Position numbers and translations under genes: made by a program | Part shown: in pieces, positions 37,047-64,000 of the stretch | Layout: every line of letters begins with the position of its first letter | Position numbering within the stretch: the stretch's first letter is position 1 | Origin: Fimicolochytrium jonesii | Lineage: Eukaryota | DNA: 64,000 bases | Direction: 5' to 3' | NCBI RefSeq assembly: GCF_025526975.1 | Contig: NW_026515681.1 | Coordinates: 558,001-622,000, forward strand | The notes under the pieces: generated by a model | Told to the model about the DNA's origin: nothing | The model's database searches: none | Seen by the model: the letters and a program-made list of their open reading frames with translations, nothing else

Positions 37047-38506
37047 CTACGCCGACTGGGATCGGAAGATACGGTTGCGCCCACGTTGGTGGCAGTCCAC
37101 CTCATTGCAGGGCACACGGCGTTGAGCCTGAGCCTCAACAGCAACATCATCATCGCCACGAGCAGTAGATTCGGGAATGCAGCCCCTGACCACCGTCTGA
37201 TGAATAGCATTCAAGAGATCACCGTTGTCGTTGTTAATAGCCCAGAACATGATTCCGCCGGCGTTCCTCAACGCGTATCGGGTGCGCTGTCGAGCAAAGC
37301 GTGGGTCAGGCAAGGTGGTGAACGATGCCTCGGCGGCGTTGTACCAGAAGGATTCTTTCTCGGCAGTGTCCCAATGACGCTGCCATCCAGGACCGCTGAC
37401 GACCTCAATCTGGGTGTTATAAGGCTGGCCATCGTCTACGGTGCCGTTGTAGGGTTGGTTGAGACCGTTGTTGGTGGGAGGTACGCCGTGGAAGGTTTTG
37501 CCGTAGAAGGGGATGCCCGGCACGACTTGAGATGGAGCGAAGCCTAGGCCTGTCCAGGTGTTGATAGCGCCGCGGAACAAGGAGAAGGGAGAGTCGGATC
37601 CGGTCGTTTCAGTCCATTCGCCGACGGTATCGTACACCATGGGGTAAACGTAGTTCATGACTCGGGCGAATGCAGAGAGATCCGTCACTTCCGTGCCGTT
37701 GCGGATCCAAGGATCGATGGAAACAGCGGCCGTGATCAAAGAGCCCCTTGGGGAGAGCGGCACGAAGCTCTCGAACCAGGAGGAGCAGGTTGTCAACATC
37801 GAAGGGATCTATTTGGAGACAAACTCCGGTCAGCAGATTAATGACGAATGCTTTCTTTCATAAAGGCTTACCAATGGTGTTGCCAGGCGCTCCCTCGCTT
37901 CCCGGGAACTCCCAGTCAATGTCTACACCGTTTAGCCTGAATTTCCTGACGAGGGACAAGGCGCTTCGTACGAAATTGGCTCTGAGTTGAGGGCTTCTAG
38001 GAATGACACTGAAGAAGGTGCTTCCTGTAAAAAATTCAAAGAGTCTAGCGGTTGCTCGCGAACCCATAGCAGATGAGCTATGCGAGCCTTACCACCCCAT
38101 CCTCCAATACTCAAAACCACCTTCGTTTTGGAGCCAGATGCAGCCGCAGCCGCTCTGAGTGCGACCAGGGTATCCCAAGACCCTGATTCGGGCTCCAAAG
38201 TACCATTCGCCTGAGGAGTCGCGAAAGCTGCCGCACACAAACGATTGGAATGACATCAGCATCTGGAAGGACAACGACGGCGCGGGAAGTACAACAAAAG
38301 CAATACTAACCGAAGTTGAGGATAGTGACCTTGTTAAACTGAACATTAGGGATGTCGCTGGTTTCACCGTAGAAGTAACCCACGACTTGGAAGTTTCTCG
38401 AGGGACAGGTGGCAGTGTCCACGGACGACTCGGAGAGAGGGCTGGCATAGACGGCGGTAACCAGGAAGGCGAGCAACGACAACAGGAAGGCGACCGAGAA
38501 GCGCAT
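37047..38506 (-). pseudogene. Secreted GH18 chitinase with an apparent +1 frameshift
   Basis: Signal peptide, LSIGGWG, NGVDIDWEFP, MVYD, GIPFYG, GGIMFW. Exon 4 reads DPFDVDNLLLLVRELRAALPKG and must change frame at the C4 run (37744-37747) to continue SLITAAVS. Confidence 0.85.
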
Positions 38507-40651: not shown

Positions 40652-41559
<908 letters not shown>

Positions 41560-41763
41560 TCACCGGGTTTTAATTGTCGCGTCAGCACGTGAGGAGGAGG
41601 GAGTTTTAATGCATGCGTTTGTTGATGAAGCACAGCGTTGACGCCGTTGAGTCCTTTCCCCTTTCCCACTTCTCGCGTGCGTCCACCGGTCCCTGGGAAC
41701 CGTCTGCATCGTCTCACGGCCACGGACAACCGACCACTTCGCCTTCATATCACACTCGAAGCT

Positions 41764-42995
41764 ATGCCTAGTCACCGCGGCTTGAAAGTGCACGTTCAGG
41801 TGGACAACCAGAACCTCAAGGAATACAAGACGACTGTCTCGGACGATGGCAAACTGTCACTTGTTATATCATCTCGCAGGAGGACAAGGAATACCAGATT
41901 CTCTACACACTCGGTCCGGAGTTTGGACAGGTTGACGAGCGAGAACCCGGAGCAAAGGCCCCTTAGTATCTGTGCACTGCATCTTTGGATGGGGTCCCCT
42001 CGACCAAATCGGTCATCGCGCCGCCCGGTTGGAAGGAGAAAGGTGTTCGCAGCGGGACAAAGCTATACCCGTTCCGTTTCGGCAAATTGGACCCAGAAGC
42101 CGCTGAAGAAAATGATGGCCCACCACCGCAGTTGAACTCGAAATTGCAGGAGCTGAGTACCATCAAAGTGGAAATAACGAGGGTCGCTGACAGGCAAATA
42201 AATGTCCGGTCCACCGAGCCAATGGCGCCTCCTGATCTATCAGCCGGCAACATCTCAAAGAAGAAGGACGCTTTTCTTAGTCACCGCAGTGTGTATGTTG
42301 ACGGAGCGAACGAGAATAACCTTACTTTTGGAGCTTTAAACGTTTTCGTCCTATAGTCTAGGTGAAGCAGAGGAGATCCCACCAATCTTTACGTGTCAAG
42401 CTGAGTACATGGATAACAAGCAACCAGTTGTCACCTTCATCTTCAAGTACCGATCCCGTTGTACGTAACCCTCACAGGTTTTCGCCTAGACCGACTTGTA
42501 CAATCTTACTGACTTAATCTATCCTCAGCACTCCTCGAAGCCGACGACATCATCCCTTACATCCCAACCGAAGCAGGCGCCGCAGAATTCAACCCCGCTA
42601 CGCCCCAACCCCCCCGCATCCCCCGCCGCCGCCTCCTCCTCCCCCAACGCTCTACAACCCCCATAAAAATCGACTCGGACGAGGACATCACAATCGACCT
42701 CACAGCAGAAACAGACTCGTTCACCGTCACACGCCGCAAACGTGAAGCTGGCTCCTCATCCTCATCCTCTGTCGTTGTCAAACGTGCCAAAACAGGGGAG
42801 GGGGGTGTGATTGATCTTGTGAAACAGGAGGGTGAAGGGGCAAGGGAGAAGGAGGAGATGCGGGTGTTGAGAGAGCAGGTGCGGAGTTTGCAGGAGAGGT
42901 TGGGGAGACAGGGGGAGGCGAGTGGGAGTGGGAGTGGGAGTGGGAGTGTGGATGGACCGGCTGGACCGGCTGCTCAATCGTCTTCGACGGCGTAA
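41764..42995 (+). pseudogene. Fungal DUF7918-like gene with a frameshift and an in-frame stop
   Basis: V.VD...LKEY...TVTCYI, PFRFGKL, STIKVEI, FIFKYRSR.LLEA..IIP motifs. Frameshift at the A-run 41851-41853; TAG at 41964-41966. Family name is from memory. Confidence 0.7.
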
Positions 42996-43355
42996 ATCTT
43001 TTTCGCGCGGCGGTTCAACCTTGGGACAGGTTCGTTATCATGCGCCACGGCGGTTGCGACCTGCATATGGGCGTTCATCAGCAGCTCTCAGCATATTATT
43101 TCTCTTCACCACAGCGCATCCCTATTTGGCCCCCTACTGCAAAGATGTTTTCCACCCTTTCACGTTATAACCATCGCACAAAGTCTTGCTAATCAGAGAA
43201 ATTGAATGTGAGCATTTGCCTAGTGTACGAATGTCAATGAACAAGATTTTGAGCAAAAAAGATGGATACAAATGGTGTACAAAGGGAACTACGTTTCCCG
43301 GCAAAGTGGTTGTGGCGGGGGCCGGGAGTAATAAAACCCAGCCCAGGGGGTCTTG

Positions 43356-43394
43356 TAACCCTAATCCTAACCCTAACCCTAACCCTAACCCTAA
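43356..43394 (-). repeat. Interstitial telomere tract, ~6.5 CCCTAA units
   Basis: TAA CCCTAA TCCTAA (CCCTAA)4. Confidence 0.95.
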
Positions 43395-43736
43395 ATGTTG
43401 CGCGTCCACGAAATGTGCGAGCGAACAATCCGTTGGGATGGGGGATGGAATAGTTCGATGGGAAACAGAATGTATTTAAAGGCGATTTATGATGATGCAG
43501 AAAAAAAGGGAAGGGAGGAAATACGGGACGCAAAAAGGGTAAGAAGCAGGAGAAATATCTATCACAAACAGTTTTCTATGACGGAACATCAGTCTAAAGT
43601 GCTCGCGCTAGCCTTGGAAAGTCTATAATGAAAGCAAACGGAGGAGTGACGAAGGAGAATGAAAATAAATGAGCAAAAGGTACAAAGTACGAGCGAAAAC
43701 CATAGAAAAGCGGCCGAGTGCGATCAAATGCTGTTC

Positions 43737-46700
43737 TCAGTCCGCATTGGTGTCGTCCTTGAGGAGAGCGTTGACGAATTGCGACGGCTTCGGCACGGTG
43801 GAATTTCCTTTGCGGGTCTCGATGGCCCGGGACACGGCTGCGAACCGAGAACTCTTCTTGAGGATTTGCCGGCGGAGTCGCAACCAAACACTTTCCGAAC
43901 GCTTGGAGGTGTGGAGGTTGTGAACGGTCGCATTGGCCGGATTCTTGTAGCGGATCTTGAGGCCGGGAAGGAGGAGCTCGGGCGTGATCGGGAAGGGCGT
44001 GAATGCGCCGTCTGGCAAACCGGCGTCCTTTGGATGAACGATCTTGTAGAGAGGCATCGGGATTCCGGCCTTGACGTAACGCGTGATGGTGTCGTGGATC
44101 TGACGAATGTAGAAAGACGAATCTTGTAGGACCTCGCCGCTGCTGGTAGCAAGGCTAGCATTGCCGATAGCGGAGATCGGGTTGGGACGGGGTGAGCCAT
44201 TGGAGGGCTTGGCTCCCGAAACGTCGGCAAGTGTGCGGTTCACGAGGATTGATTCGTCACGTCGGTGAACCTGAGTAGCATCCTTTTCCCAAAAGACCCA
44301 AAATCCGTACTGATCGTTCAAGAATCGTCGTGGTGGCGTCATCCAATAATCGTACAGGGCAAGATTGTACTGGTTCATCTTTCGGATGAATGTGTTTGCG
44401 CCTGACTGGTGCCACTCATCATAGTCCGTTAGCAAATGCGAGAAGGGTTGCCCTTTGTCCAGGCGTTCCATAAAGTAACCGAGGAATATATCGGCCTCTC
44501 TGTTCAACGTGTCATCATCGAAATCCTTTCCCGTCTCCCATTTGCCTCTTGCGTCTCCGTCGAAGGCGTTCAATTCGAAGGGGGCGCGATACTTGTTGGC
44601 CTGGCGCTGCCACGATAAGATTGTGGGGACATCGCCTTTCATCGGACCATCTTCCCAATTGTGTTCATAGAGGTTTGCCGTCGCTCTCACTCTGTTACCC
44701 GCCGAGTTGGTGACGTCGACGAGCTGAGGGCGGTAACGACGTTTTTGTAGCCTCCATTGCTGTACCATGTTGTGAATATGATCTTCTTATTGTTGGTGAC
44801 ATGGGTCTCGAGAGGAACCCGGAGAATGTCCGCTATGCCTGTTTTGTCGTCGTTCTTCAGGATCATGGCGCATGTGTTTGTTGCTGCACATGCATTGTCG
44901 ATGGCAACGTCCAGCAAATTGACGAGACCAAAGTAGTGGGCGCCGTTGCCGGCCACGGAGGCATCCGCATTCAGATCGTCCGCCTGAAACTGAGAAGGGA
45001 ATCAGTCGGGTGGAGGTCGGAAAGGTATTCTAGCCCATGAACTACTCACCACCACAAAGGTTCCGAGAGCCTGCACCTTGAGCCACTTGAACACCTCAAT
45101 CAAACTCTGCTCGATTGGCTGCGCAAAGAACGGCCCATCAAAGACGCTCAAGACGGGTCTCGGCAGGTAGTAACCGTTGGTTAACGTATTCCCGTTGAGA
45201 AGCAAGTCGACATTGAGCCACCGGACACCGTTATTGAGCTGTGCGACGAAACCTTGCTGTGTGGCCTTATGGCAAGACCACAAGGCACTTATGCCCACCG
45301 ACCCCGTCCCCATGCCGGCATTATGCTGGCCCCTGAAAGCGATCCAAGGAATGGGCAACCGGCAAATGTTTTTGTCTCCATTGCAAATGTAGTTCTTTTG
45401 CCCGATTGGGATCGTAGGAGTCGTGGGGTTTGGCGGAGTGATGGGGACTGATGAGAGCACCGGAAGCGCTCTCGCGGCGGCGGCGATGGTGACGGGATTC
45501 GTATTCAGATCGGTGGCCCAAATCATGATGCCCCCCATACAAGCTTTCTTGGCGAATTCGAACTTGATCGCCCACGTTTCCGGATCATCATAAGTGACGA
45601 GGTCGCCGTTGGCGGTGAAATACTTGGTTCCGGTGGCAGCATCCAGCTGAGGCCGGACACCCGACTGCTGAATCATTTCCTCCACTTCGAACTGCGCAAG
45701 ATATCCGGTTTCACCGGAACATTTTCCGGCCCTGCCACCGCCAGTCATCGCGCAACCGTAGCCTTGGCAGCCCGGATTGACCAACTTGAAGCTGCGTCCA
45801 TAGTACGCCACTCCCAGGTTGAGCTTGTCGGTAGGGATGCCAGCGCGTATGTAGAGAGCGAGGCTCTCCTCGATTTCTTTCATGCTTGTTTGGGAGGCAG
45901 CCTTCATGTAATGAGCGGGATCCCAGGCACCGGCACTAGTGGCATCCCACGGGCCGTGGAAATCGTAGGCCATGATGTTGATGAACGACACTGCGGGCAA
46001 CACATCGTGCGTTAGTTTGGGAGGAGCTGCCGTTCTTCTGGACCACTCATACGACTCACTGCGGTGTTAAGACCACTCAAGTCGAAGCCTTTCAGGAATC
46101 AGTATCCAGCGGGAGTGGCCATGCTGATTTCTTTCCAGTACGGAAGTTTGGATCGCATGTTCTGCATAAAAGCTGAGAGGTTGGCAGTCTCCGTGGGCGG
46201 GCCGTTCCTTTCGATTGAAGCTGGGTACTCAAAATCGATATCGATTCCGTCGAACTTGTACTTGTCGAGAAACTCTCGGACCGACGCGATGAAGCGGTCT
46301 TGCTTCTCTCGCGTGCTTATCATTTCCGAGAAAAGTGACTTCGTGGGATCATCTTGCGAAAACGCCCATCCACCGACCGCGATGAGGATGTGTGTCTGAG
46401 GAAATTGAGCTTTCCTTGCCACAAGACGGCGAGCCATCGGTTCGTCGAAAGCAGGGTCCTCGAAACCTATAACTCCGTTTTTGATGACTGCAAAGGAATA
46501 AATCATATGAGTAAACCCCGTCATATCCAGTTGTTCTGGCGCCAACGGGCTGCATTTGCGTGCCGCTCCCCTATACATCCGACGAGTTTCAATAGGTAAG
46601 AGATCCAACAGAAATGTACCGCAGAATCCTCCCGGAATCGCTTACCATCCAGCGTAATACCCGACCTTGCGCTTCACGTTGGAACCGTCGCAAGTGCTAG

Positions 46701-47591
46701 GTACTTGTGGCATGAAGCAGTTCGAGAGACATGGAAACCCGTTCGGATCCGGAAGGCAATGCTCCGCAGTAACTCCGCAGTAACTCCGCAGTAACTCCGC
46801 AGTAGCCTCCGGAACTGCAGCAGGCGTTGAGAGGGCATTTCTTGTTGCCGGCCGACTGTGGGCCGCACTCGACTCCATCGACGACGGCGGGGACAGGAGG
46901 CGTGCCTGTGGAAAGGCAGATTCTTGCGCCGTCCTGGATTTTATCACACCCCATCCATCGAAACGTGGCTTGATTGTAGGCTTCGAGCTGTGCGAGTGTC
47001 AAATCGAACTTTGCGGCGATCCCGGAACAGGATTCGCCTGCGAGTACATCGTAAGGGGCGCAGGTTCCGTCGGGGTTCTGTTTGGGTGCACGAGAGGGCT
47101 TCACGCCCAAACCGCAGCACATGCGTTGATTGGCTTGTAGCGCTTGGCAATCGAGTCCTGGATTGGCACGCATGAATGCCGCCAAGCTGGTACCGCAATC
47201 AGTCGCGATCTTTTCGCACCAACCCCCTTCCTTAACTTCCTTGAAACGACAGGTTCCGTCCGGATTGGCTGGCAACATGGGAGGCGGCGGCATGGGGCCG
47301 GCCGAAACGCATAGGCGGTCCCCCGGGGAAATTGCATCGCACTTGAGTCCGGGGTTGAAAGCGAGCAGCTAAGGCAAGGTAATGTGCTGACTTTGAGCAA
47401 CCTTCTCGCACCAATCATTGGCAGCAACAGTGTACGTCCTAAATGGTGGTAGCAACGGAAAAAGAAGGTTATGACGGGCCTAATGTTGTTGATCAAGAAC
47501 TGAGAACCGTAACGAACCTGCAAGGGGATTGGGCCAAGCTCCCTGGCGTGAGAGCCAGGGAGGTAACGAGGAGGAGGCCGCGCATAAGCAT
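43737..47591 (-). pseudogene. Killer-toxin-like (subgroup C) chitinase: signal-3xLysM-CBM18-GH18-PI-PLC-like; multiply disrupted
   Basis: LysM repeats (C..IA.......NPGL.C), CBM18 CPLNACCSSGGYCG, GH18 AVGGW, FDGIDIDFEYP, MAYDFHG, GGIMIW. Lesions: TAG 47369-47371, 11-mer expansion 46762-46805, TGA 46099-46101, frameshift near 44742-44746. Confidence 0.9.
46762..46805. repeat. 11-bp tandem repeat (CTCCGCAGTAA) x4 in the CBM18-coding exon
   Basis: Three perfect copies plus one ending in TAG. Confidence 0.95.
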
Positions 47592-49738: not shown

Positions 49739-50026
49739 GAGGGAGAGTAGGCGTACCGGCGTATGTGCAGTAGGCTGCCAGATACTGGTTACGACGGGTT
49801 GTTGAGCCTCCCTGTGCAACCCAGAAGTCACCGGCCAGCTGTCAGTCCTGCCCTGGGCTAGGGGTCGTGCTGAAAGGATTTGCATGGGGGTCGGCAACTT
49901 GAGTCGGTGGCTATGCTCGGAATGATGTGTCCTTGGGGCGTCGTAACCAGATATCTGGCAGCCTACTGTAGATGTAGATAGGTCACGGCAATCTTGCGAA
50001 CATAATGATAGAGCGAATGATATACA

Positions 50027-50068
50027 CGCCAAATGTTTGGTGGGATCGCCAAATGTTTGGTGGGATCG
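50027..50068. repeat. 20-bp tandem duplication
   Basis: CGCCAAATGTTTGGTGGGAT occurs twice in tandem. Confidence 0.9.
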
Positions 50069-53000
50069 GAAGTTCGGCGCCAACACCACTTGCGCGATCT
50101 CAATACGTAGGTTGATCTCCATATATAGGTTACTTCTGGAATCCGCAATCCATGCGGTGCGGGTAGATTGGCCGATGGACCCGACGGGTCCCTGTTCTTC
50201 CAGTGACTCTGCAGAGGCTTGAGTAAGTTATATGAATCCTAACGTCAGTTGGGCGCGCTGTGAGGCACCGGGCCTTGGAGGGCAAGGTTCCTCAGACCTA
50301 GCCAGCAAAGAGGCCACGATCAACTGGTACGGTCACCTGCTGTTCTCGAACCCGTTTCTTCCAGGGGATTTCAACCCAGTAGTAAGATGCATCGGCAATT
50401 TCTAAGCTTGTTCAACCTCATACAATGTGTCGCATGAACGCCTCAACTGATCTCGGCGCACAATTCTGGGAATGTCCTGTTCGCTGTCCCATGGATGAAT
50501 ATGAAGATCTTCAATCGTACAGTATAGTCTGTGTCCATATGTCTGCGACCACCTATGACGTCCAGGCCGGCCGTCGCAATGCACACTGACTTAATCACGT
50601 GAGGTTGCAGACATATGGACACAGACTGTACTAGCAAAGACTTCCTCCTCCGTATCGTCATCGCTATCTTCCAACGAAATAAACTCTTCGCCAGCACCTC
50701 GCATATTGACTAGAACCGCTTGAGCAAAGTGCACGAAGAGTAGTTCCGGTTCGGGAAAAAGGTCTCGAAAATAAGTTGGAGTCGGTCCGTTAGGAAGAAT
50801 CCGAGGGGTGGATACTTCTTGCCCGTGCCGTAAGCCAGTGACAGGATGGAATAGATGGACGAAAAACTATTTGGAAAGAACCCCACCAGTCAGGCGTTGA
50901 TGCGGAAGATAATGACAATTGGTCTGACCTTGTTTTCACGTGGCCAGATAGAAAACCGAAATGCGCCAAAACTCTCATGTATTGATGAGGACATGGTCAG
51001 TCTATTCTTGATGTCAAACACAGGGAGATATTGACCTGCAACAGCTGGGAATCCACATAAGAAGTCCGCTCTATCCCGGTCTTCGGCAAACTGTGTTGGA
51101 AGACATGTGGAAGAATTTGTGAGACCCACGACACAGTCTCCAATCTCCATCTACCGCTAGACGTACCCATTTTGTGCCATACTCTGGTGAATCCCTCGAA
51201 CGGAAGCCCCACTGGTCCGGTGTAGCTCGACCATACTCGGGGGCTAGGTTATGGACGTGGTCATATCGCGAGGTAGCCTCCGCTAAATCTTGTCCCTCGT
51301 TTCCTGGAGCAGGCGGAAGGGGATCTCTCTTTTCTGAAGAAGGTCGGCAGGGAAACCCCGCAGACCTCTGCCGCTCGACTGGCGGAGTAGGTGGCAAGCT
51401 GATATATTGTGGATGCTCCGCTGACTTGGGGCTCCCACCACAGGAAGGGCTCGGCAGAAGGACAGCATATACCTCCTCCCTCCCCGCATGATGTTCTTAG
51501 ATAACAAGAATTTCTCATCAGCTTGGTGGGAACTTGTTTACTCCCAGCCAGTCGCTCCCAAACCGACAATGGTACATGCTTGGGTTCAATCTCGCCTGGC
51601 TCCTGCAGCAGCAAGTTCGCATCATTGTCCACCATCCGGTTTGCGGCTTCCGGGCTGATATCCTATCCTTCAAGTGAAAGTTCCGTAAAGAGACCTTCGC
51701 TACTATATCCAATGTCCCGAAGAAGCTTCCCTAGGACAGCCTGCTGCACGAAGGCCAGATGGGATGCGGTCGTAGCGTACGTCATTGCCGCCTTGAACTC
51801 CCTCAGTTCCGCCCCACTCAAAATCAGCACCAGCACCGCAGAGCCAGACTTTCTCCTGTTCAGCAGGCCTCGGATCCTGCCATACGGGACTCCCAAAGCA
51901 GAGCAGTCATCTTTGAGAAGGACAAAGGAAACTCGCGAGGCTACGTCTGTAAGCAACTGGAGTTAGCAGCTTTTCCAAGGGCAAGTTGGCCTCGTAAACA
52001 AGTATCTTACCGACCTTTCAGTACGGGGAGGGCAAGCTCCCCAACTTGCTGGCGGCACACGGTTAGAGGAGAGGGATACGAGCGTAGCTGCAAGGTCATC
52101 TCCTTCGGATACCGTTGTGCTCAGGATGAAACGACGACGGAGCACTGAAGTATCAGGAATCTCTTGTTGCGGCTCAATTTATTGTCCCCGCTGCAACGAA
52201 TGGTTGGCATCCGGGCACGTGATGCGTGTTGAGTGTTCCCAGGAAATGGAACCGTCATGGCTGGCCTCCCCGCACATTGAATGGACCGGGTTGCTTGGCA
52301 CGACGCTACAGCGCTGAAAACAGATTGGGGTAACCGTCAGCTTCAACACTGCTACTGTCATCACTTGACGAGGCATACCTCGGGAAAGCTCCTTCGGAAA
52401 ACCCGGTATCATCCAAGATTTCCTTCCCAAAGTGGACAGAGGAGTTCGTTAAGGGGCCTGAAGACCGGACATTCGTATAACAGCGGCTTTGACAAGCTAA
52501 TAGTGTCCCACCCAGGTAACACATGCACGCATCCATGTGATGTGCGTAGCCTGCCTGTAGCCGGCCGTACTCCGAAGTCGGCGAGCTTCCTGGCTCGGTT
52601 TAGGTGTAGCTTGCCTGGCATTCCATCACGTCTGACACCTTGTTCGAGGCGCGAGAGGCATCCCTGCGTTGGTTGATATCCCAAGTTCTGAATCCCGATA
52701 GAACTCTCATGCCCCAGTAGAGAGCGCCCAGTGCTGTGATTCCATTGGCGTAGAAACGTGTAGTTGTAGTTTCGCTTCTCCTCCTCTTATTTGGGTAGGC
52801 TGCCACATCCATCCTGACTGGCGCTCCTTTCTCTGAAGTCCGGTTGCCCGCGGAACTTACGCGTGATCACTTTGAGGTTTGGTTTCAGCTCGCTTGCTGG
52901 TCCTCCTCGCCAAATCAACCGTTATCCTGTCTGACCACGAGGAAGGCAGCTGGAACCCTTGCAGCGAGGAAGGAAGGTTGCGAAAAAAGCACCTGCTGTT

Positions 53001-54372: not shown

Positions 54373-55484
54373 ATGGGGGTCGTCTCGAAATATGAAAAGC
54401 TTGCACGAGAGCGTTTCGAAGCAATTCCAGCCGACAAAAAAAGAAAGTTTGACGAATTGGCGGCAGATAATCCCGAGGCCAAAGCTTTTTTTGATCTTTT
54501 TGTAAGCATACCTTCGTCGAAGTTGCCCTTCTTATTGTATTCTGACGCCATGTCTGGGTAGGCAACCGTCTCCAAAACTGTCCAACCGAGCTCCGTCACT
54601 CGAAAGGATCTCATAACCGTCTTTGGCAAGGAGTATGATCCTTTCATGATTCTTGAGGCTAGCGGCAGCGGTTTCACTACCGAGTCTTTTACCATGCCAG
54701 CGGATCTGCCACCAGTCGAAGTCTCTCAGTCATTCGGTAAGCTGTGCTGTGCTGCCATACATCACCCGATACCCTTGTTGACTTTCCCTCATGTGCACCA
54801 TATCCTCTATCAGAAACTCAATGGGCGGACCTTGAAAAATACTTTGATATGCGGTCGGAGCCGCTGACACGCACCTATATTGACTGCATTTCCTTGGAAG
54901 TGATGCGCCACACAGCGCCCGAGCCAACCATGCAGCAGCTGCGTTTGTACGGCGAGATCTCGGCGTCATACACTTCCCCAGAAACCGGGTTAACTCTCTC
55001 AGGAGCTGGGGATTACTTTTTGGGATACGGAGAACGAAGTGGGGAAAGCCTCGAGAACCTTTCCCTAGTTGGAGAAGCCAAGACCCGAGGAACCAAAATT
55101 GGGGACACCATCATTTTACAAACACTTTCCTACATGTTAATGGTCCATGTAGCTCGCAAACGCACAAAGAAAGCTCACCCCCGAGTCTATGGATTCGCGA
55201 CAAACGGTTACGAGTGGGTGTTTCTTGTCATTGAAGACAACGGGAAGCTCGGACGCTCCCGCCAATATGACATAAGGTGGAACAAGGTGGAAATTTGGAA
55301 ACGGCTCAAGTTCGTCTTCGAGGCGGCTCGGGATTCAAGCCCAACAACCACACCGGCCGTGTCACGGGAAGCCACGGAATCTGAATTGGTCGAAGCAGAG
55401 GGCAAAGAGGAGTCGGCGCCATACACGTTCAGGCTCATAACGCAGCATCCACCAATGAGAAGCGACGAAGAGGACCCCGAATGA
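54373..55484 (+). CDS. PD-(D/E)XK restriction-endonuclease-fold protein (Crinkler/HsdR-N-like)
   Basis: Three exons; E...LSGAGDYFLGY...LVGEAK...QTLSYML...VYGFATNGYEWVFL motif series. Confidence 0.8.
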
Positions 55485-55893: not shown

Positions 55894-56054
55894 CCCTAAC
55901 CCTAACCCTAAACCCTAAACCCTAACCCCCCGCCTTCTCCATTCCATCCCTCGTCCAACGGGTCCGCTGTTATTTCAACAAGGCTGCCGCCCCCCTGAAC
56001 CCCCCGCCTTCTCCATTCCATCACTCGTCCAACGGGTCCGCTGTTATTTCAACA
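55894..56054. repeat. Variant telomere tract followed by a 57-bp direct repeat pair
   Basis: (CCCTAA)2(CCCTAAA)2CCCTAA at 55894-55925; repeats at 55924-55980 and 55998-56054 differ by one base. Confidence 0.95.
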
Positions 56055-56340: not shown

Positions 56341-59300
56341 CTAGAGGCAGCACAGGGCATTGGCTTCTGCGATCACCGGATTCCTCCAGCCTTCTAGCAG
56401 CATTTCGATGATGCTCTGTAGCTTCTCGCGACCTGTCTCGGATGGAGAAGCGGTCGCGAAACTAAGGAACTTTGCGAAGGCCGTTGGGTTCGAGAAGTTC
56501 GCTAGGGTAGCGTAATCTGCAACCTCCAGTTTGCTAAGCTTCGCAGCCAGCTCCACTGCCTTGTCACTCTTCTGTATCTGCGCAAGACGCTTGTCTAAAC
56601 TTTGAATGACCATCACCGCTTTGTTGGCGTCGGGATCGTTGAGGGAGGCTGCGGCGTTCGCAGTGGTCTTCTGAACTTCCTGTTTCGATAAGTCTCCAAG
56701 AACCGACTTGACAACTTCGTCGATCTCGGCTGCAGGCGCTTCTTCACCGGTAAGCACACGCCATGGGATCCTGATACGTTCGGCATCGCTGGAAACCTTG
56801 TCCAGATTGTCTTTAGAAGCGCTCCCTGCGGCCTTGATAGAGACATAGGGGTCCCAGTTTTGAATCTTCACATTGGCAATATCTACTCCCCACGTCTCTG
56901 AGATGCGCTCTTTTTCGCCCTCCATCTTCCCAATGACCTCCACGACCCCCGAATCGTTTCCTTTCTTTCCACTTGTGAGTACCGCGTTCTTAGCCTTCTT
57001 GTAGCGAGCACTTCGTTTAGCGTACATGTTGGCGCAGGCTTCGGCGACATGTTTGTGATGCGTCTCAGTGGTTCCTCCATATTTGGCGATGGTCCGAAGA
57101 TAATCAATGACGATACCGAATCCGCGGGTCTTCTCAATATCAGCCGGCTGCTTTTCCAACATGCGCAAAGCTACCGTGCGAACTTTCTCCTTTACAACTC
57201 GATCATCTGTGCTTGATTTGCTCTTTTGCAGATGGCGCACGACTTCCACGGCGATTTGAAGGAACTGCAGCTGAGCGTTCCGAGTCTCGAGGCTTTCATT
57301 GGCCTCCGCCATTTTCATCGCGGTGACCGCCTTCCTCATCGGTTCGGTTACCGGGTCGGTTATCCTCTCTCGCAAGGTTCGGACGAGGAGAAGCTTCACG
57401 TTCTTTCGGAAGCTGTCCAGCGGCCAACCCGTGTGGGGCAGAAGATCACACATCGCAGTGTACATGAAGATCTCATCCGAGGGAGGCAGTTCAAGCTTGG
57501 GATTCTTGAGGACAAGCTGCCACACCATGGACAAGGGTTTGCCCGAACCGGAGGCGGCGATACTCAGAAGCTGGCCGAATAGCCCGCGCATAACCTGACA
57601 GTAAGGACCGGAAAAGTCGGTCGGAATGTCCCCCTTACGTGATGTCGCGTAGTCATACATGAGATGCAACAATGCGATGATCATGAAGAATCCGATATCT
57701 CGGTTGCCGGGGTGGATGTTCAAAGATTTTGCAGCGGTGGCGCCAACGATGGTACTGCGAGTCAAGATGCGCAGCTTAGCTATGTGACCTTCCATGCACG
57801 CCTGGGGCCAGTACATCTCCGACGGGTCCTTGAGGTTCACGAACTCGTCGAAGCAAGCCCAAAGTAAGGCCGAATGGTGACCATCGCCTTCGTGGCTTGG
57901 GCCTGATTGAGGAATGGCCATGCAGATGGTGTCATCACCAGCCTTCGCCGATGCCAATGGACCCTTATGGAATGATCTGACCAGTGGGAGGACGGTTGCA
58001 ACCTCGGTGCCTGCGCGGACCGTCAATGCTGCGGAGAGTCGCTTCTTGTTCAGCGGAGGGTGATTGACGGCCCCCAACAGGGTGTTCTTTGCAACTTCTC
58101 GAAGCATGTCTTGCAAGACGTTACCGTCAATTTGGCCACTGACGACACCGATCTCGCGACAATGCAACCCCAGGATGTGATTTAGATCATCCATTGTCAT
58201 CGTCTTGGCATCAGCCACGTTTGTTGCCACCTTGTTCTTCCTCTCCAGCTGTTTGAGATCATGTTTCTTAGCGGATGATGTGCGGGTGGACACTAGGTTT
58301 CCGAGTCCGTCGATCAGCCACTGACAAGCTGCGGTTGCTTGCTTCTCAGCATCGCGGTAGGCCGCATGAAGGGTATTCTTTCGAACCTCCATAGCCTTGA
58401 TGTCTTCAGGGCTCCTTGACCCCAGTGAGAAATTCGAGATCATGAAATCGATGTATGGTCCCTTGTAAGGTTCGATGGCCTTCGATATTTTATCCTTCAT
58501 CGTCTCAATCAGCTTCTGTGCAAAATGCGTGATGTCCTCTCCCGCCATGACGGTCTGTAGTTGTGTCAAGATGTCGGTAATGTCCTCCCGACGCTCTTGA
58601 ATCATGTCGAAACTCATAGCGGCGAACGTGTCCGGTATGCTCGATACAGACACCTTGGTGCCGAGGAAGTAAGGCGAAAGAGAGTTCCCCTCTTTTCCGA
58701 TGGAGACCCGCCTCGGCCAGGGAAGGTTGACATCAGCGTCTGCCAGAGATACAATTTCATCTGTGATGTCGTCTCCGAACGACGGCAAGAATTCGAGAAG
58801 CCCAGGCCATCGGATACCGCGGTAGAAAAAAAAGTTTTCCGCAAGTTGAACCACCACCAGCGATTGTGGGCCGGCAAGAGAAGTGATCGCATTGATGTTC
58901 AGATCGATAAGAAACGCATGGCGGAGGTCCTCCTTATCCAGGATCTTGAGATCAAAAGGCGTCTTTGGTTTGATGATGAAGAGCCCGTTGATGCGCTCCG
59001 TAGGATTCAACAAGCGACATTGATCGGTCATCGTGTCTGACACAATGATAACCGGGGCCTTTCCCTTTTCAAACAAGGAATCGAAGGTGTCATTTCTTAC
59101 ATTCCCAGGAAGCCCCATAGAAGGTTGACCCAGCGCTAGAAGCTTCCGGCCCTCAAGAATGTTCCCCAGGCAACACGGAAAGACAACCTCATCGGCCAAA
59201 ATGCTACTACCACCGCGATCATCATACTCGGTGAGAGTGATACCCGTTTTGAACCACAGCACATGACTGGGACGAACGAATTCTGGAATGGATGTTCCCT

Positions 59301-60282
59301 TCTCGACGATAGCGACTTCCGATATGTGAATGAAACCCGCATCCCCGGTCCTTCTCACCACCGCGGTACTTTCTGATGCAGACGCAGGCTGGATAGGTAG
59401 TAATGCCGCTGAGGAACGTTGCTTTGCGGTCGCGATGGTGTGATCACAGATGGAACGGGCCGTCTGAATCGCCTCTTGAAAGGCGTTACGGGCGCCACGG
59501 AGCATACGGCCGCTTGCGTGCATACCTCTGCAGGTCGGGGGATTCGGAAGGAATGTGAAGCGAATGTGGGTGTCGGATATACGTTGTCCGACAGCCGAAC
59601 AGCAAACAGTCGTGTCTGTGCCGATACTCGCAGGGTCCAAAGGGATGGGGACGAGATACAGGCTCCTCGTTTCGTGATTCACAAGCAGCACCGCTGGATT
59701 CTGTTGAGCGTAGCGATGCAAGGCATTATTGCTATAACCAGACACAAAGACAACAAAAGGGTCTCTGTGAAGGTTCTCCTCCATTTGAACGTGATGCAGG
59801 AGGACTCCACCGGATGACTTGTCGCCGCTGTGCCAGATACCCGTGAGATGCTGAGAAGTCACGGATGCCCAGCATATGATGCTCTCATTTACGCTTCCGA
59901 CGCCCAGATCATAGAAGGTGGGTTTCCCGGTCAAGGAAAGAGCGAACAAGAGGTTCTTCCCAGCAATGTGGGGCAGATCGATAAACGGTTCCGTTGGCGT
60001 GACTACCGTATAACTTTCTTCATCCTTGAGATTTCCCTGGTGATTCTTGATCCTATCATATAGGGAGGTACCAATAGCGTTCAAGTCGGTGTTGTCGAGG
60101 AAGAAAGACGCAGGGCGGTTCGTATAATCCACTTCTGAGAAACACTTTCCGTCCCATACTTGGAGCTTCTTTTTGTATACATGGGCGGTGCCTGGAAGCT
60201 GATCTTTGAGGAAGGAACGAACATCGTCCCTTGTGGCGAGAAGCGGATTGAAGAGGATGCGTTTCACGTTGGTGTTGCTCAT
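56341..60282 (-). CDS. Large intronless protein (~1313 aa) with a TerD-like N-terminal region
   Basis: Uninterrupted 3.9-kb ORF, first ATG at 60282. Segment FYDLGV...GIWHSGDKSSGG...FVVFVSGYS...AVLLVN resembles the TerD fold; the remainder looks largely helical and is unassigned. Confidence 0.85.
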   Translation of the reverse strand: MSNTNVKRILFNPLLATRDDVRSFLKDQLPGTAHVYKKKLQVWDGKCFSEVDYTNRPASFFLDNTDLNAIGTSLYDRIKNHQGNLKDEESYTVVTPTEPFIDLPHIAGKNLLFALSLTGKPTFYDLGVGSVNESIICWASVTSQHLTGIWHSGDKSSGGVLLHHVQMEENLHRDPFVVFVSGYSNNALHRYAQQNPAVLLVNHETRSLYLVPIPLDPASIGTDTTVCCSAVGQRISDTHIRFTFLPNPPTCRGMHASGRMLRGARNAFQEAIQTARSICDHTIATAKQRSSAALLPIQPASASESTAVVRRTGDAGFIHISEVAIVEKGTSIPEFVRPSHVLWFKTGITLTEYDDRGGSSILADEVVFPCCLGNILEGRKLLALGQPSMGLPGNVRNDTFDSLFEKGKAPVIIVSDTMTDQCRLLNPTERINGLFIIKPKTPFDLKILDKEDLRHAFLIDLNINAITSLAGPQSLVVVQLAENFFFYRGIRWPGLLEFLPSFGDDITDEIVSLADADVNLPWPRRVSIGKEGNSLSPYFLGTKVSVSSIPDTFAAMSFDMIQERREDITDILTQLQTVMAGEDITHFAQKLIETMKDKISKAIEPYKGPYIDFMISNFSLGSRSPEDIKAMEVRKNTLHAAYRDAEKQATAACQWLIDGLGNLVSTRTSSAKKHDLKQLERKNKVATNVADAKTMTMDDLNHILGLHCREIGVVSGQIDGNVLQDMLREVAKNTLLGAVNHPPLNKKRLSAALTVRAGTEVATVLPLVRSFHKGPLASAKAGDDTICMAIPQSGPSHEGDGHHSALLWACFDEFVNLKDPSEMYWPQACMEGHIAKLRILTRSTIVGATAAKSLNIHPGNRDIGFFMIIALLHLMYDYATSRKGDIPTDFSGPYCQVMRGLFGQLLSIAASGSGKPLSMVWQLVLKNPKLELPPSDEIFMYTAMCDLLPHTGWPLDSFRKNVKLLLVRTLRERITDPVTEPMRKAVTAMKMAEANESLETRNAQLQFLQIAVEVVRHLQKSKSSTDDRVVKEKVRTVALRMLEKQPADIEKTRGFGIVIDYLRTIAKYGGTTETHHKHVAEACANMYAKRSARYKKAKNAVLTSGKKGNDSGVVEVIGKMEGEKERISETWGVDIANVKIQNWDPYVSIKAAGSASKDNLDKVSSDAERIRIPWRVLTGEEAPAAEIDEVVKSVLGDLSKQEVQKTTANAAASLNDPDANKAVMVIQSLDKRLAQIQKSDKAVELAAKLSKLEVADYATLANFSNPTAFAKFLSFATASPSETGREKLQSIIEMLLEGWRNPVIAEANALCCL

Positions 60283-60600
60283 GATTCTATCGACCGTGGG
60301 CTGATGATAGGTTAAGATTGGTGAGGAAATTCTCAACGCTTTGCTACTTTTAAAGGTAACGCGTTGAGAATTTCAGGCGAGTTTATCGATAAACTCAAAC
60401 TTTCTGTGAGTCGCGTGAGTCATCAATTTGGCGCGCTGTCGAATTTCTGAGTATCTTCACGCGTGCCCCACAACTTTCCCACTTGCGAAAAGAAAACGTG
60501 ACTAAGATGAGTAACACCTGTCAACAGAAGGGGACTATATAAACGCTAAAGCAGCGGACAGGGCGAAGAGGTAATCTTAAGGTCCTACACCTCCACCACA
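60283..60600. promoter_or_regulatory. Bidirectional promoter with palindromes and candidate MCB/E2F/TATA motifs
   Basis: 14-bp inverted repeat 60326-60339/60361-60374; perfect 18-bp palindrome 60379-60396; ACGCGT at 60359 and 60459; TTTGGCGCG at 60427; TATATAAA at 60536. Confidence 0.6.
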
Positions 60601-63600
60601 ATGAGTACGGCCCGGTCGAATCTCGATTTCGTCATCATCGCCGACTCCACCTCGTCGATGGTGGAAGTCCAACGGTCACTGAAAAATACCCTTTTTCAAG
60701 TCTTCAACCTGGCAACACTGACGGGGTCCTTCAACCGGATTGGTTTGATGTGGTACACCGACTATACGCTCCCTGCAAAGTATCCAGTGACCTCCTGGTC
60801 TGGTTGGTGCACCTCATTCACCGAAATACAGGAGTTCATCGGTAACGGAGAACTCTATCCGGGTGGCGACGAACCGGAAGCATGCAAGACTGCGCTTTGG
60901 GAGGTGTTGCAGCTTGTAGACGTCTCTCGAACTACCGTGGTCATATGGTACGGGGATGCTGCGCCACATCACATCAGCAACGATGACGGACACCCGAACT
61001 ACTCAAGGGAACTGAAACGGTTGAATCAAGATTTCGATTGGGTCCACCTTTGTCAACTCGCAGCCGCCCGGGGTTGCGTGGTTTGCCCCATCATCAATAC
61101 ACAAGAACGAGCGGTCATACCTTTCTTTGCTCTCATCGCGACGATAACGGGCGGTCAAGCGCATACGATCCCCGTATCAAGCCCGGCGGAGGAAGTCACA
61201 AGAGATACCATTCGTATCCTTTTGAGGATCCTTGGGACCGAATGTGGCCATGTCGAGGCAAGCCGTATGGGCTACGGCAAACCGCTGCCTTCATTGGCAG
61301 CTAAGGATGAGAACAGCCTTCAAGGATACCTCCCGTTCGTGCCAGTGTACAGCAAGAAAAGCAATCGGTACAGTAATCCGCGCCGCACGGGCAAAACTGC
61401 CACCGCGACCGTGGTAGTCCCTGCGATTCAAGTGCGAATCGAAGGAGCGGAAGCCGGCGGGGAGGCGACTGCAACCGCAATTGCAGGCATGCCTTTCCAA
61501 TCCAAGATACATGGACATGGTCTCTCCATGAAGGAGCTCAGGCGGCGATTTGCTGAAGAAGAGGGGTATACCGATATCGCTTTCACTGTATTCGAGAACA
61601 TCGTCAAGGACTCAGCAGCGCTTGTGTCTCTCACTTACAACAACGTCTTCGCTGCTGTATGGCGCAAGGTGATTCGACGGTTCCATGACCCCCGAAGAAG
61701 CAAGATAGCTATTCAGTTCACTAGGATGCTACAGACACTCAACACTTTGCAGAAACAGCAGGTTAGAGAATGGCTTGAGGCGAGTTATGATGCATTAGAG
61801 GAAATTCAGGAAACCATCGACCGGGTACCCGCGGATAAACGTTATCCGGCTTTAGCACTTCAATCTGTGGAGACGTTTCGTCCGCAGGAGCTCACCGCTG
61901 TCACCAGCTCTTGCGACCGGGAATCTCTGTCTCGAGTGATCAAGCTCCTTGCGAATGTTTACGTAATCAAAGAGGAGAAGGCGAACGTGCGGTCGATACC
62001 ATTAGCGCTGTCAGATGGGGATCTCATCCCGCTTCTACCTCATCTGATGTGCAAAGGGCTTACCTTTTCATCGAGATCCTCAGCGATTCTCGCCATCCTA
62101 GCGGTCCTCAGCCGCAATGCTGTTCTTCACGGGAGGGCACGTTCATATTTGGATCTGGTCCGTGGGCAATGGCTTGACATGGAAGTAGCTGGAAACTACT
62201 CCGTGGGCTTCATACGTTTGGCAATCAAAGCGGAGAAGATCCTTACCGCGGAGGAATCGGAAAAGGTCAACATCGTGCGGGAGCTGCAAGGGCTTCTCAT
62301 GAATAAGCGGACTGAAGTCGTCGTTAAGGTATCAAGTAATCTCAAAGGAACCCGGCTACCTGACTGGAAAAGTCCCTGTGCGAAATGTGGAAAACAAAGA
62401 AGCGGGACTCTGCTCACAGCAGCGGGAGAGTGCGCCCCTTGTGTACTCGGGTACAAACCCAAGACCGACGGACCTGAAGATGGGAGTCACATGTACGATT
62501 GTAGCAGATGTCTAGTCCGGTATGCTGTCATCGAGACAGCAGATCTCAAGGTTGTTCGCCCACGTTGCCACTATTGCCGTCTCGACCTCCCTTCCCCTGT
62601 CATAAGATGTATCTCTTGCAACGTGCGTTACATCGACGCCAACGGTCTGCTCGCGAAGAATGGCGATGGGAAATGTGCGCCCTGTGCAGTCGGTCCCCGT
62701 GTCGATGCAATCACTGGCCCGATGGAGAACGTAGAGACGACCATAGGGCGATTGTATGTCGAATCGCCCAGCAATCGGTGCACGATCCATGAAGCTTTAA
62801 ACCTCCTTGCAACGCCGCCGGCCTACGACATTATGCAAAATTCAGGTGGAGGCGTGTACTCTATGCGGCATGTCTTCCGCAGAGTATCTTGCCCTACAGA
62901 TGCAAATGGGCATTACCGATACCAGCTCACATACCGTGGCAGATCAATACACAACATCGAAGCTGTTCTGGATACGATACGGGAATGGGCAAGGAAGCAT
63001 ACTGCGGAACTTGGGATGTGCATGATGTGCTGCGAGGAGATGAAGAAGGAGACAATGGTCACGGCTTGTGGGCGGAGCGGTTGCGTCGTGAAATGTTGCG
63101 CTCCTTGCGTAACCACGTGGTATGGTTATCTTCAACGCGGCCACGTCCTGCCACCAGCAAATATGGTTTGCCCTTTCTGCAAAAGATCTCCGTCTTCGCG
63201 GGTTCTCGCCCGCCACAACCGCGAAGCCTGTGAGCTTATTAGACAGCGGCCTGCGAACGGATACGATCCGGGGTGGTACTATGGATGGTGTACGATGTGC
63301 ATGAGGCCTCGGCAATGGATGGAGAAGGTGTGTGCTCAAGATGGGCCTCCAGCGACGGGCGAATTTCGTTGCGAAAGCTGTAGTTACCTGAACACAGCGC
63401 CTGGGCTCAATGCGCGGGATTGCCCTTCTTGTGGAGTCACGATCGAGAAGACCTACGGTTGCGATCATATCACATGTCGCTGTGGACAACACTGGTGCTG
63501 GCGATGTGGAAGCAAGTTTACAGCGCAAACGATATACTCGCACATCTACGGGTGTCGCGGAGATGAGATATTTGCAGCTTTCAACAACAACAACGGACAG

Positions 63601-63672
63601 AATGACGAAGGCTATGGCGGAGGCTATGAAGGTTATGATGATGAGGAAGATGAATATTATGATGATTATTAG
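60601..63672 (+). CDS. Intronless vWA-Zn ribbon-RBR (Ariadne-like) E3 ligase, mimivirus R811-like architecture
   Basis: MIDAS motifs ADSTSSM, GGDEPEA, GDAAPH; central CxxC pairs; RING1 CMMC...C...CAPC...CPFC; RING2 CPSCGVTIEKTYGCDHITCRCGQHWCWRC; acidic tail. Confidence 0.9.
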   Translation: MSTARSNLDFVIIADSTSSMVEVQRSLKNTLFQVFNLATLTGSFNRIGLMWYTDYTLPAKYPVTSWSGWCTSFTEIQEFIGNGELYPGGDEPEACKTALWEVLQLVDVSRTTVVIWYGDAAPHHISNDDGHPNYSRELKRLNQDFDWVHLCQLAAARGCVVCPIINTQERAVIPFFALIATITGGQAHTIPVSSPAEEVTRDTIRILLRILGTECGHVEASRMGYGKPLPSLAAKDENSLQGYLPFVPVYSKKSNRYSNPRRTGKTATATVVVPAIQVRIEGAEAGGEATATAIAGMPFQSKIHGHGLSMKELRRRFAEEEGYTDIAFTVFENIVKDSAALVSLTYNNVFAAVWRKVIRRFHDPRRSKIAIQFTRMLQTLNTLQKQQVREWLEASYDALEEIQETIDRVPADKRYPALALQSVETFRPQELTAVTSSCDRESLSRVIKLLANVYVIKEEKANVRSIPLALSDGDLIPLLPHLMCKGLTFSSRSSAILAILAVLSRNAVLHGRARSYLDLVRGQWLDMEVAGNYSVGFIRLAIKAEKILTAEESEKVNIVRELQGLLMNKRTEVVVKVSSNLKGTRLPDWKSPCAKCGKQRSGTLLTAAGECAPCVLGYKPKTDGPEDGSHMYDCSRCLVRYAVIETADLKVVRPRCHYCRLDLPSPVIRCISCNVRYIDANGLLAKNGDGKCAPCAVGPRVDAITGPMENVETTIGRLYVESPSNRCTIHEALNLLATPPAYDIMQNSGGGVYSMRHVFRRVSCPTDANGHYRYQLTYRGRSIHNIEAVLDTIREWARKHTAELGMCMMCCEEMKKETMVTACGRSGCVVKCCAPCVTTWYGYLQRGHVLPPANMVCPFCKRSPSSRVLARHNREACELIRQRPANGYDPGWYYGWCTMCMRPRQWMEKVCAQDGPPATGEFRCESCSYLNTAPGLNARDCPSCGVTIEKTYGCDHITCRCGQHWCWRCGSKFTAQTIYSHIYGCRGDEIFAAFNNNNGQNDEGYGGGYEGYDDEEDEYYDDY

Positions 63673-63738: not shown

Positions 63739-64000
63739 GTTCGCCCTCTCCCAATACAACATCCACCCCGATATCATCGCCATCTCCAAAGGCCTCACAT
63801 GCGGGTACCTCCCCATGGGTGCCACCATCTATACCGAAGAAGTCCACAAAGTCGCCAACGCCAACCCGGCCACAAAGCTCTCCCCCTCCGACATCTGGCA
63901 GCACGACTACACCTGGAGCGGACACCCCACCTGCGCCGCCGTCGCGCTCAAGTGTCTGCAGCTCCTGAAGGACGAGAACCTCATCTCACGCGCGGTGGTG
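63739..64000 (+). pseudogene. Internal exon of a class III PLP aminotransferase whose 5' half was not found in the window
   Basis: After the acceptor AAGCAG: FALSQYNIHPDIIAISKGLTCGYLPMGAT...HDYTWSGHPTCAAVALKCL, containing the PLP-lysine motif. Not represented in the ORF track. Confidence 0.85.

What the first reader, a model, noticed from the sequence alone, without database searches (positions are those of the whole stretch)
56341..63672. Candidate new system: divergent TerD-like giant protein plus vWA-RBR ubiquitin ligase
Seen: two intronless ORFs (3.9 and 3.1 kb) head-to-head across 318 bp, while the housekeeping genes here have short introns and several neighbours are broken. Both are fully open, which suggests selection or recent arrival. 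Known: vWA + Ariadne-RBR is the architecture of mimivirus R811, and TerD and vWA proteins co-occur in bacterial Ter stress/anti-phage gene neighbourhoods. Inference: a co-regulated, probably horizontally acquired sensor plus ubiquitin-ligase module for defence or stress, or a virus-derived cassette.
Basis: partly seen in the sequence, partly recalled or inferred. Interest (0 to 1): 0.9.

Follow-up and report, generated by a model that had tools for sequence, protein, structure and literature searches.

The report
Ancient fungal TerD-protein/ubiquitin-ligase gene pair
Two genes sit back to back here and in a distant relative, one predicted to be a protein-tagging (ubiquitin) enzyme with giant-virus cousins, the other a large unnamed protein with a predicted bacterial stress-sensor fold, and they likely form an old, jointly switched stress module of chytrid-like fungi rather than a recent viral import.

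Summary
In detail: two open, intronless genes (1313 and 1023 aa) lie head to head, 318 bp apart. The smaller is a vWA–zinc-finger–RING1–Rcat protein. It keeps its catalytic Cys/His, matches mimivirid proteins over its full length, and has a reduced IBR and no Ariadne domain. The larger has a predicted TerD fold (residues 92–270, Z 8.8–11.5), a weak vWA-like domain and a helical remainder. It belongs to an unnamed family of at least 234 clusters in fungi, protists and giant viruses. The same head-to-head pair recurs in a contig at 42%/36% identity and probably in two more. It is absent from 11 of 12 ligase loci with enough flank, from the one viral giant-protein locus, and apparently from Phlyctochytrium and Arthrobotrys. 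The host looks chytrid-like. Both gene trees nest among chytrid-type sequences, codon use matches the host, and grouping with a giant-virus copy is rejected, so recent transfer is not supported. A TGA(C/G)T-rich promoter recurs upstream of fungal ligase homologues. Verdict: an old, lineage-restricted, probably co-regulated pair of uncharacterised genes. The sensor-plus-ligase role is plausible but untested.

The parts
56341..60282 (-). Giant TerD-fold protein gene (1313 aa, intronless), member of an unnamed family of about 1200-1400-aa proteins
   Evidence: 234 clusters at E<=0.001; model of residues 1-1200, mean pLDDT 87
59473..60009 (-). TerD-fold domain, residues about 92-270, with conserved D125, H151-S-G-D154 and H163 (predicted metal site)
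   Evidence: VIA Z 8.8-11.5 to TerD-family structures; HSGD aligns with the TerZ/TerD H-x-G-D motif; conservation
58720..59325 (-). Degenerate vWA-like alpha/beta domain, residues about 320-521 (weak match)
   Evidence: Z 6.1-6.2 to two vWA domains, inside the background range; no profile match to TerF/TerY vWA
56344..58689 (-). Helical C-terminal region, residues about 532-1313, with near-invariant S665, N688, W825, R838, R842, R899, S911; fold unassigned
60283..60600 (.). 318-bp divergent intergenic region, candidate bidirectional promoter with a cluster of TGA(C/G)T sites including one TGAGTCA
60601..63672 (+). vWA - helical - zinc fingers - RING1 - reduced IBR - Rcat ubiquitin-ligase gene (1023 aa, intronless)
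60613..61245 (+). vWA domain (residues about 5-215) with MIDAS-type D15-x-T17-x-S19, D90, E93, D119
   Evidence: Z up to 17.7; Foldseek to integrin beta-I domains
62377..62685 (+). Six CxxC pairs (about three zinc fingers), residues 593-695
63019..63180 (+). RING1-like domain with eight Cys ligands (C807-C860; no His)
   Evidence: conserved in 9 of 9 rows examined
63289..63381 (+). Reduced in-between-RING segment, five Cys (C897-C927), at most one zinc site
63421..63555 (+). Rcat (RING2) domain with predicted catalytic C954 and H956
   Evidence: Pfam IBR_1 above cut-off; matches to parkin and ARIH1 Rcat; 9 of 9 rows
63740..64000 (+). 3' part of a class III aminotransferase that begins 67 bp after the ligase stop; 5' half not found in the window

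Best explanation
The two head-to-head genes are likely an old, vertically inherited pair of a chytrid-like fungal lineage, likely switched on together from a shared stress-type promoter, in which the smaller protein is predicted to be an RBR-type ubiquitin ligase and the larger is predicted to be a metal-binding TerD-fold sensor or scaffold of the same pathway. Shown: gene layout, domain folds, intact catalytic and metal-binding residues, the same layout in a distant genome, and tree positions. Inferred: RING1 binds a ubiquitin-loaded E2 and passes ubiquitin to C954 of Rcat. The MIDAS vWA domain captures a substrate or partner. A bZIP (AP-1/Gcn4-like) factor drives both genes through the TGA(C/G)T cluster. 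The giant protein binds a metal or small ligand at D125/H151/D154/H163 and acts upstream of, or as a substrate of, the ligase. The partnership is not obligate, because both families also occur unpaired.
For: Same head-to-head layout in L001 at 42%/36% identity with a 255-bp gap, and different genes downstream of the giant. Two more giant/ligase protein pairs share a longest-contig length (321,979 and 8,731 bp; the latter barely holds both genes). Giant tree: the window groups with Spizellomycetales chytrids (SH-aLRT 100) inside a fungal clade whose other half is Pezizomycotina. The ligase tree has the same branching. Codon-use correlation with housekeeping exons is 0.89 (giant) and 0.79 (ligase), against -0.04 for a viral giant-family gene. 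C954, H956 and the eight RING1 Cys are kept in 9 of 9 rows; D125, H151 and D154 in 96 of 100 rows, the other 4 being gaps. TGA(C/G)T: 6 sites against 0.82 expected (window) and 4 against 0.68 (L001). It was the top shared motif, with 8 of 300 shuffles reaching it, and 3-5 sites lie upstream of 7 of 8 other intron-bearing ligase loci with a full 300 bp, against 0 in 4 virus-like loci.
Against: Linkage is restricted: only 1 of 12 ligase loci with 1 kb or more upstream has the giant gene. In Phlyctochytrium arcticum the two best hits lie on different scaffolds. In Arthrobotrys flagrans the genes numbered next to the giant homologue align over only about 300 aa. The viral locus L020 has no ligase within 10 kb. 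Congruent trees are expected for any two vertically inherited genes. The promoter motif is short, its loci are partly related, and six control starts in the window had 0-3 sites. The host group is inferred from gene content using recalled knowledge. The IBR is non-canonical, so ligase activity is a prediction.
Confidence: 0.45

Rival explanations
1. Passive neighbours: two unrelated accessory genes, perhaps captured together long ago from a giant virus or another eukaryote, have stayed adjacent in some chytrid lineages by synteny or a shared promoter, with no functional link between the proteins.
For: Both families occur in giant viruses and both genes are intronless here. The pair is apparently broken in P. 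arcticum and absent in other fungi. No data on binding or co-expression.
Against: The pair keeps its orientation and a 255-318-bp spacing at about 40% protein identity while the flanking genes differ. No viral contig with both genes was found.
Confidence: 0.33
2. Obligate two-subunit E3: the giant protein is a dedicated activator or substrate adaptor (cullin-like role) that binds the ligase, possibly through vWA-vWA contact, and couples TerD-type sensing to ubiquitination in defence.
For: Conserved divergent layout. Both proteins carry vWA-type folds. Ariadne RBRs are activated by binding helical cullin scaffolds (PMC3940038, passages).
Against: Each family occurs without the other nearby, and the ligase lacks an Ariadne autoinhibitory domain that would need release.
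Confidence: 0.14
3. Recently acquired viral or horizontally transferred cassette.
For: Intronless; full-length giant-virus homologues of both proteins; a 5'-truncated aminotransferase right after the ligase suggests a past rearrangement.
Against: GC is flat across the region and codon use is host-like. Closest relatives are 71-76% identical and paired on a 322-kb contig. The AU test rejects grouping with the viral copy. No capsid, integrase or terminal repeat was found nearby.
Confidence: 0.08

Closest known systems
Mimivirid vWA + 'ariadne-like' RING proteins (Borely moumouvirus A0A6G6AAA4, Megavirus courdo7 H2ECJ9/H2ECK0, Yasminevirus A0A5K0U8U4; the R811 label is recalled and was not among the listed hits)
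   Same: Full-length structural match (Foldseek E 3e-61, 28% identity); same domain order and cysteine pattern as virus-like loci L005 and L013.
   Different: Here the gene is cellular, nested among fungal sequences and paired with a TerD-fold gene; the virus-like loci seen are unpaired.
RBR E3 ligases (parkin, ARIH1/HHARI)
   Same: RING1-like domain followed by an Rcat with catalytic Cys and His (definition from PMC3940038 passages).
   Different: All-Cys RING1, middle domain cut to five Cys, no Ariadne domain, N-terminal vWA and three extra zinc fingers.
Bacterial TerD/TerE/TerZ and TerF (TerD-like + vWA) of ter operons
   Same: TerD fold (Z 8.8-11.5) and the aligned D...H-x-G-D residues; a TerD-then-vWA-like order as in TerF; TerD and vWA genes lie side by side on plasmid R478.
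   Different: The acidic GxGxGDDE loop is replaced by a short loop and a His; no sequence match to Pfam TerD or to TerF/TerY vWA; a further 780 helical residues; eukaryotic; no other ter genes.
Tetraselmis virus 1 uncharacterised protein A0A2P0VN52 and the giant-virus gene in L020
   Same: Full-length homologues of the giant protein (Foldseek E 3e-54, TM 0.57).
   Different: L020 lies beside a major capsid gene with no ligase within 10 kb, and falls outside the fungal clade.

Membership tests
RBR E3 ligase | Rcat (RING2) with catalytic Cys and His | tested here: met
   C954/H956; Pfam IBR_1 32.6 bits over cut-off 27; parkin/ARIH1 matches; 9 of 9 rows
RBR E3 ligase | RING1 with eight cross-brace zinc ligands | tested here: inconclusive
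   Eight conserved Cys with RING-like spacing, weak match to FANCL RING (E 0.004), but no His, no Pfam RING hit, and model confidence below 50 there
RBR E3 ligase | BRcat/IBR domain with the same fold as Rcat | tested here: not met
   Only five conserved Cys (897-927) between RING1 and Rcat and no second IBR Pfam match: a reduced domain. It works like an RBR but is a variant.
Ariadne subfamily | C-terminal Ariadne autoinhibitory domain | tested here: not met
   The protein ends about 40 residues after Rcat in an acidic, Tyr-rich tail
RBR E3 ligase | Thioester-dependent ubiquitin transfer | not testable with these tools
   needs an in vitro assay
vWA (MIDAS-type) | vWA fold with D-x-S/T-x-S and distal acidic ligands | tested here: met
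   Z 15-17.7; D15, T17, S19 in 8 of 9 rows (one truncated), D119 in 9 of 9
TerD family (PF02342) | TerD beta-sandwich fold | tested here: met
   TerD structures are the only 2 of 48,161 chains at Z >= 8; Z 8.8-11.5, rmsd 3.3-3.5, 147-160 aligned
TerD family (PF02342) | Sequence match to the Pfam model | tested here: not met
   0 of 39 members matched at E 0.05; profile-profile E 0.005, probability 7%
TerD family (PF02342) | Acidic GDNxTGxGxGDDE metal-binding loop (its Ca2+ role is recalled; 2kxt title) | tested here: not met
   H-S-G-D kept, rest of the loop shortened and non-acidic
Endogenous giant-virus region | Viral hallmark genes, foreign composition, nesting among viral sequences | tested here: not met
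Bacterial ter system | TerB/TerC/TerY-P triad and other ter genes alongside | tested here: not met
   no such family among the window frames scanned

The most novel reading that the evidence does not exclude
A eukaryotic counterpart of the bacterial Ter stress/defence logic: a TerD-fold metal or nucleotide sensor fused to a vWA-like and helical effector, wired to a non-canonical RBR ligase under a shared bZIP promoter. It would be an undescribed chytrid immune or stress module whose two halves giant viruses have captured separately.
Probability: 0.2. Interest if true: 0.8.

Novelty: new variant of a known kind. Interest (0 to 1): 0.52.

Why it matters
The giant protein defines an unnamed family of at least 234 clusters across fungi, algae, diplonemids, rotifers and giant viruses, with a confident model and invariant residues ready for testing. 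The ligase is a cellular version of a mimivirid enzyme of unknown function, with a non-standard RBR core. If the pair is a functional unit, it links TerD-type sensing, whose biochemistry is still unresolved, to ubiquitination in a eukaryote and suggests what the viral copies do. If it is not, two uncharacterised families remain worth naming.

Tried and rejected
No whole genome is held for the window, so copy number and the fate of the aminotransferase 5' half are unknown. Sequencing runs: none was listed, so no RNA holder listed; expression is unexamined. Scans of viral contigs found nothing for A1, A2, P0072, L005's ligase, P0034 or P0044 and one locus for P0101 (1 of 7); these exact-pattern scans miss distant relatives. 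One scan of prokaryote genomes with the L001 giant protein found none. Phage tblastn with the ligase found none. PDB sequence searches with the giant protein gave nothing significant. NCBIfam gave 0 of 10. The Atlas gave only sub-0.9 leads, one a cluster with 32% TerD members, and no hit for residues 690-1200. The helical half was not folded alone, so its lack of a fold match is inconclusive. Profile comparisons of the vWA-like region with TerF, TerY and the ligase vWA were negative. My first guess of an ascomycete host was dropped. The database's ligase-aminotransferase fusion model P0008 was rejected: it drops the conserved Rcat that all full-length relatives keep. No terminal repeats bound the pair; TAACCC runs are scattered through the window. 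Earlier findings: none. Literature searches for R811/ariadne/mimivirus, TerD with vWA/RING/fungi, giant virus with RBR and von Willebrand, chytrid with giant virus and ligase, and Tetraselmis virus with TerD returned nothing describing this pair; the library lacks most subscription papers, including the original Ter-system analysis.
Full report
Observation. The window holds an ORF on the minus strand at 56341-60282 (1313 aa, P0001) and one on the plus strand at 60601-63672 (1023 aa, P0002), with start codons 318 bp apart. They are the two longest open frames in 64 kb. Alignment with relatives shows no window-only insertion of 5 or more residues in the giant and one of 7 residues in the ligase, so both are read as intronless. 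PFK, aspartyl protease, Arf and citrate synthase are each spread over 2-3 frames. GC is flat at 0.50-0.54 across the region.

Host. The window encodes a citrate synthase whose best solved matches (about 400 bits) far exceed the bacterial ones, and which I read as the plant peroxisomal type. It also encodes a PFK with a long N-terminal extension matching the yeast beta subunit, an ANKRD13 and an RNF34-like gene. From recalled knowledge this combination fits an early-diverging, chytrid-like fungus better than a filamentous ascomycete. The named closest relatives of both proteins are chytrids. The assignment is an inference; no marker tree was possible.

The ligase. Its model (mean pLDDT 58, low in the middle and the RING region) has an N-terminal vWA fold (Z up to 17.7; Foldseek best hits are integrin beta chains). 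The MIDAS-type residues D15, T17 and S19 are kept in 8 of 9 rows that reach the C-terminus (one is truncated; 11 of the 20 alignment rows were partial and left out), and D90, E93 and D119 in 9 of 9. A helical region follows, then six CxxC pairs, an eight-Cys RING1, a five-Cys middle segment and an Rcat matching Pfam IBR_1 and parkin/ARIH1, with C954 and H956 in 9 of 9 rows. By the definitions in PMC3940038 (passages seen) it works like an RBR ligase but lacks a full BRcat and has no Ariadne domain. The best viral structure matches are full-length mimivirid proteins (moumouvirus E 3e-61, Yasminevirus 9e-40, Megavirus 'ariadne-like' 3e-35). The R811 name is recalled and was not listed.

The giant protein. 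A search with residues 1-661 found 234 clusters at E <= 0.001. Named members include chytrids, Orbiliomycetes, Leotiomycetes, Sordariomycetes, Cymbomonas, Diplonema and Adineta (30 proteins were looked up by cluster and most have no name). The model of residues 1-1200 is confident (pLDDT 87). Residues about 92-270 match TerD structures (Z 8.8-11.5, rmsd 3.3-3.5), and TerD entries are the only 2 of 48,161 chains at Z >= 8. Pfam TerD is not hit in 39 of 39 members, and the profile comparison with six R478 Ter domains is weak (E 0.005), but it places the invariant HSGD on the TerZ/TerD H-x-G-D. D125, H151 and D154 are present in 96 of 100 rows (4 gaps) and position 163 is His in 78 and Gln in 17; the acidic loop of TerD is gone. 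I infer a changed, His-containing metal site. Residues about 320-521 resemble vWA domains only weakly (Z 6.1-6.2). The helical half has invariant Arg, Trp and Ser residues and no assigned fold. A full-length homologue exists in Tetraselmis virus 1 (E 3e-54), and one cluster member lies next to a giant-virus major capsid gene (L020). PMC7159879 (passages seen) says TerD domains might recognise nucleotide derivatives in bacterial conflict systems; it does not describe this pair in the passages seen.

Is the pairing conserved? Of 19 metagenome loci found with the ligase, one, L001, carries a giant-family gene: head to head, 255 bp apart, 42% and 36% identical to the window proteins. Its downstream neighbours are glycosyltransferase-like and histidine-kinase-like genes not seen here. 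L001 is the only one of the 19 in the window's own ligase subclade. Twelve loci hold 1 kb or more upstream, and 11 of them show no giant gene with 18 diverse queries; these include virus-like loci (TBP, RNA polymerase, capsid-associated genes) and intron-bearing loci. Indirectly, P0003/P0009 share a longest contig of 321,979 bp and P0004/P0010 one of 8,731 bp; I could not fetch that DNA. Against: the Phlyctochytrium arcticum hits lie on 496-kb and 2,972-kb scaffolds. L020 has no ligase within 10 kb. In Arthrobotrys flagrans the genes numbered on either side of the giant homologue align over only about 270-310 aa (PMC6453484 supplement, Table S5 rows; two nearby numbers have no row). So the pair is real but confined to part of a chytrid-type clade.

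Origin. In trees of 67 rows (FastTree) and 31 rows (IQ-TREE quick; fragments and redundant rows left out), the window's giant groups with three unnamed proteins. That group is sister to Spizellomycetales chytrids plus L001 (support 100). Nowakowskiella lies further out, Pezizomycotina form the sister half of a fungal clade (98), and viral and protist members lie outside. AU tests reject joining the window clade to Pezizomycotina (p 1e-6) or to the viral copy (p 8e-6) (groups were named after seeing the tree). The ligase tree has the same order, and pairwise identities of the two genes track each other (r 0.97 over 10 pairs), as vertical descent predicts for any two genes. Codon use correlates with housekeeping exons at 0.89 and 0.79, inside the 0.64-0.96 range of resident genes (part of that range comes from the exons that built the reference), against -0.04 for the viral gene. 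Recent arrival is therefore not supported; an ancient exchange with giant viruses, in either direction, is not excluded.

Regulation. TGA(C/G)T was the top shared motif of the two intergenic regions among all 5-mers with one degenerate position; 8 of 300 shuffle pairs did as well. Counting from true start codons, the 300 bp upstream hold 6 sites (0.82 expected) in the window and 4 (0.68) in L001. Seven of eight other intron-bearing loci with a full 300 bp hold 3-5 (0.8-2.1 expected) and the eighth holds 2. Four virus-like loci and L003 hold 0, L002 holds 1, two loci were too short and two had no start found. Six other window gene starts hold 0-3, one of them mis-set. Several of these loci are close relatives. 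The AP-1/Gcn4 label for TGA(C/G)TCA is recalled. This is a lead for stress-type control of the fungal ligase family, and of the giant gene where the promoter is shared.

Mechanism. Most likely (0.45) the two genes are a co-regulated stress module: the ligase ubiquitinates a target captured by its vWA domain, and the TerD-fold protein acts as a ligand-binding sensor, scaffold or substrate in the same pathway. Passive adjacency (0.33), an obligate complex (0.14) and a recent viral cassette (0.08) are the rivals. Folds, residues, layout and trees are shown; activity, binding, expression and function are inferred.

Novelty. The ligase is a cellular variant of a known mimivirid architecture. The giant family has no Pfam or NCBIfam model, and nine literature searches on the topic found no description of it or of the pair (listings only, open-access library). 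I rate it a new variant of a known kind, interest 0.52.

Noticed in passing
window 63740-64000 (+): 3' half of a class III (omega/GABA-type) aminotransferase starts 67 bp after the ligase stop; no 5' half found in the window with E. coli BioA, a distant query. The public gene model P0008 splices it onto the ligase and drops Rcat.
   Followed up: partly
window 54849-55484 (+): Intact 211-aa ORF with no Pfam or NCBIfam match; its D...EAK pattern looks like a PD-(D/E)xK nuclease fold (recalled resemblance).
   Followed up: no
window 36700-47400 (-): Two GH18 chitinase regions, one with LysM and chitin-binding modules followed by a long unassigned frame (43740-44786); resembles killer-toxin-like chitinase architecture (recalled).
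   Followed up: no
window 6341-7600 (-): Citrate synthase that appears to be of the plant peroxisomal type, used as a clue to a non-ascomycete host.
   Followed up: partly
window 16340, 43356, 53704, 55894: Short interstitial TAACCC/TTAGGG runs; the one at 55894 abuts a 57-bp direct repeat (55924/55998) just downstream of the giant gene.
   Followed up: partly
window 26900-27400: Second cluster of TGA(C/G)T sites (up to 7 in 318 bp) near the PSP1 gene; the only other comparable cluster in the window.
   Followed up: no
L007, L008, L015 upstream of the ligase; L008, L015 downstream: Intron-bearing ligase homologues share an unassigned upstream ORF of about 245 aa, and two have a DUF6535 gene downstream.
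   Followed up: no
L012 6718-9844: Virus-like ligase copy split over two frames, while the near-identical L013 copy reads differently at the N-terminus; frameshift or assembly error.
   Followed up: no
window 2366-4939 (+): RasGEF gene with N-terminal ubiquitin-like (FERM F0-like) domains.
   Followed up: no
window 49763-50632: Two near-perfect inverted repeats (22 and 30 bp arms) and an HNH fragment near 51 kb, possibly remains of mobile elements.
   Followed up: no
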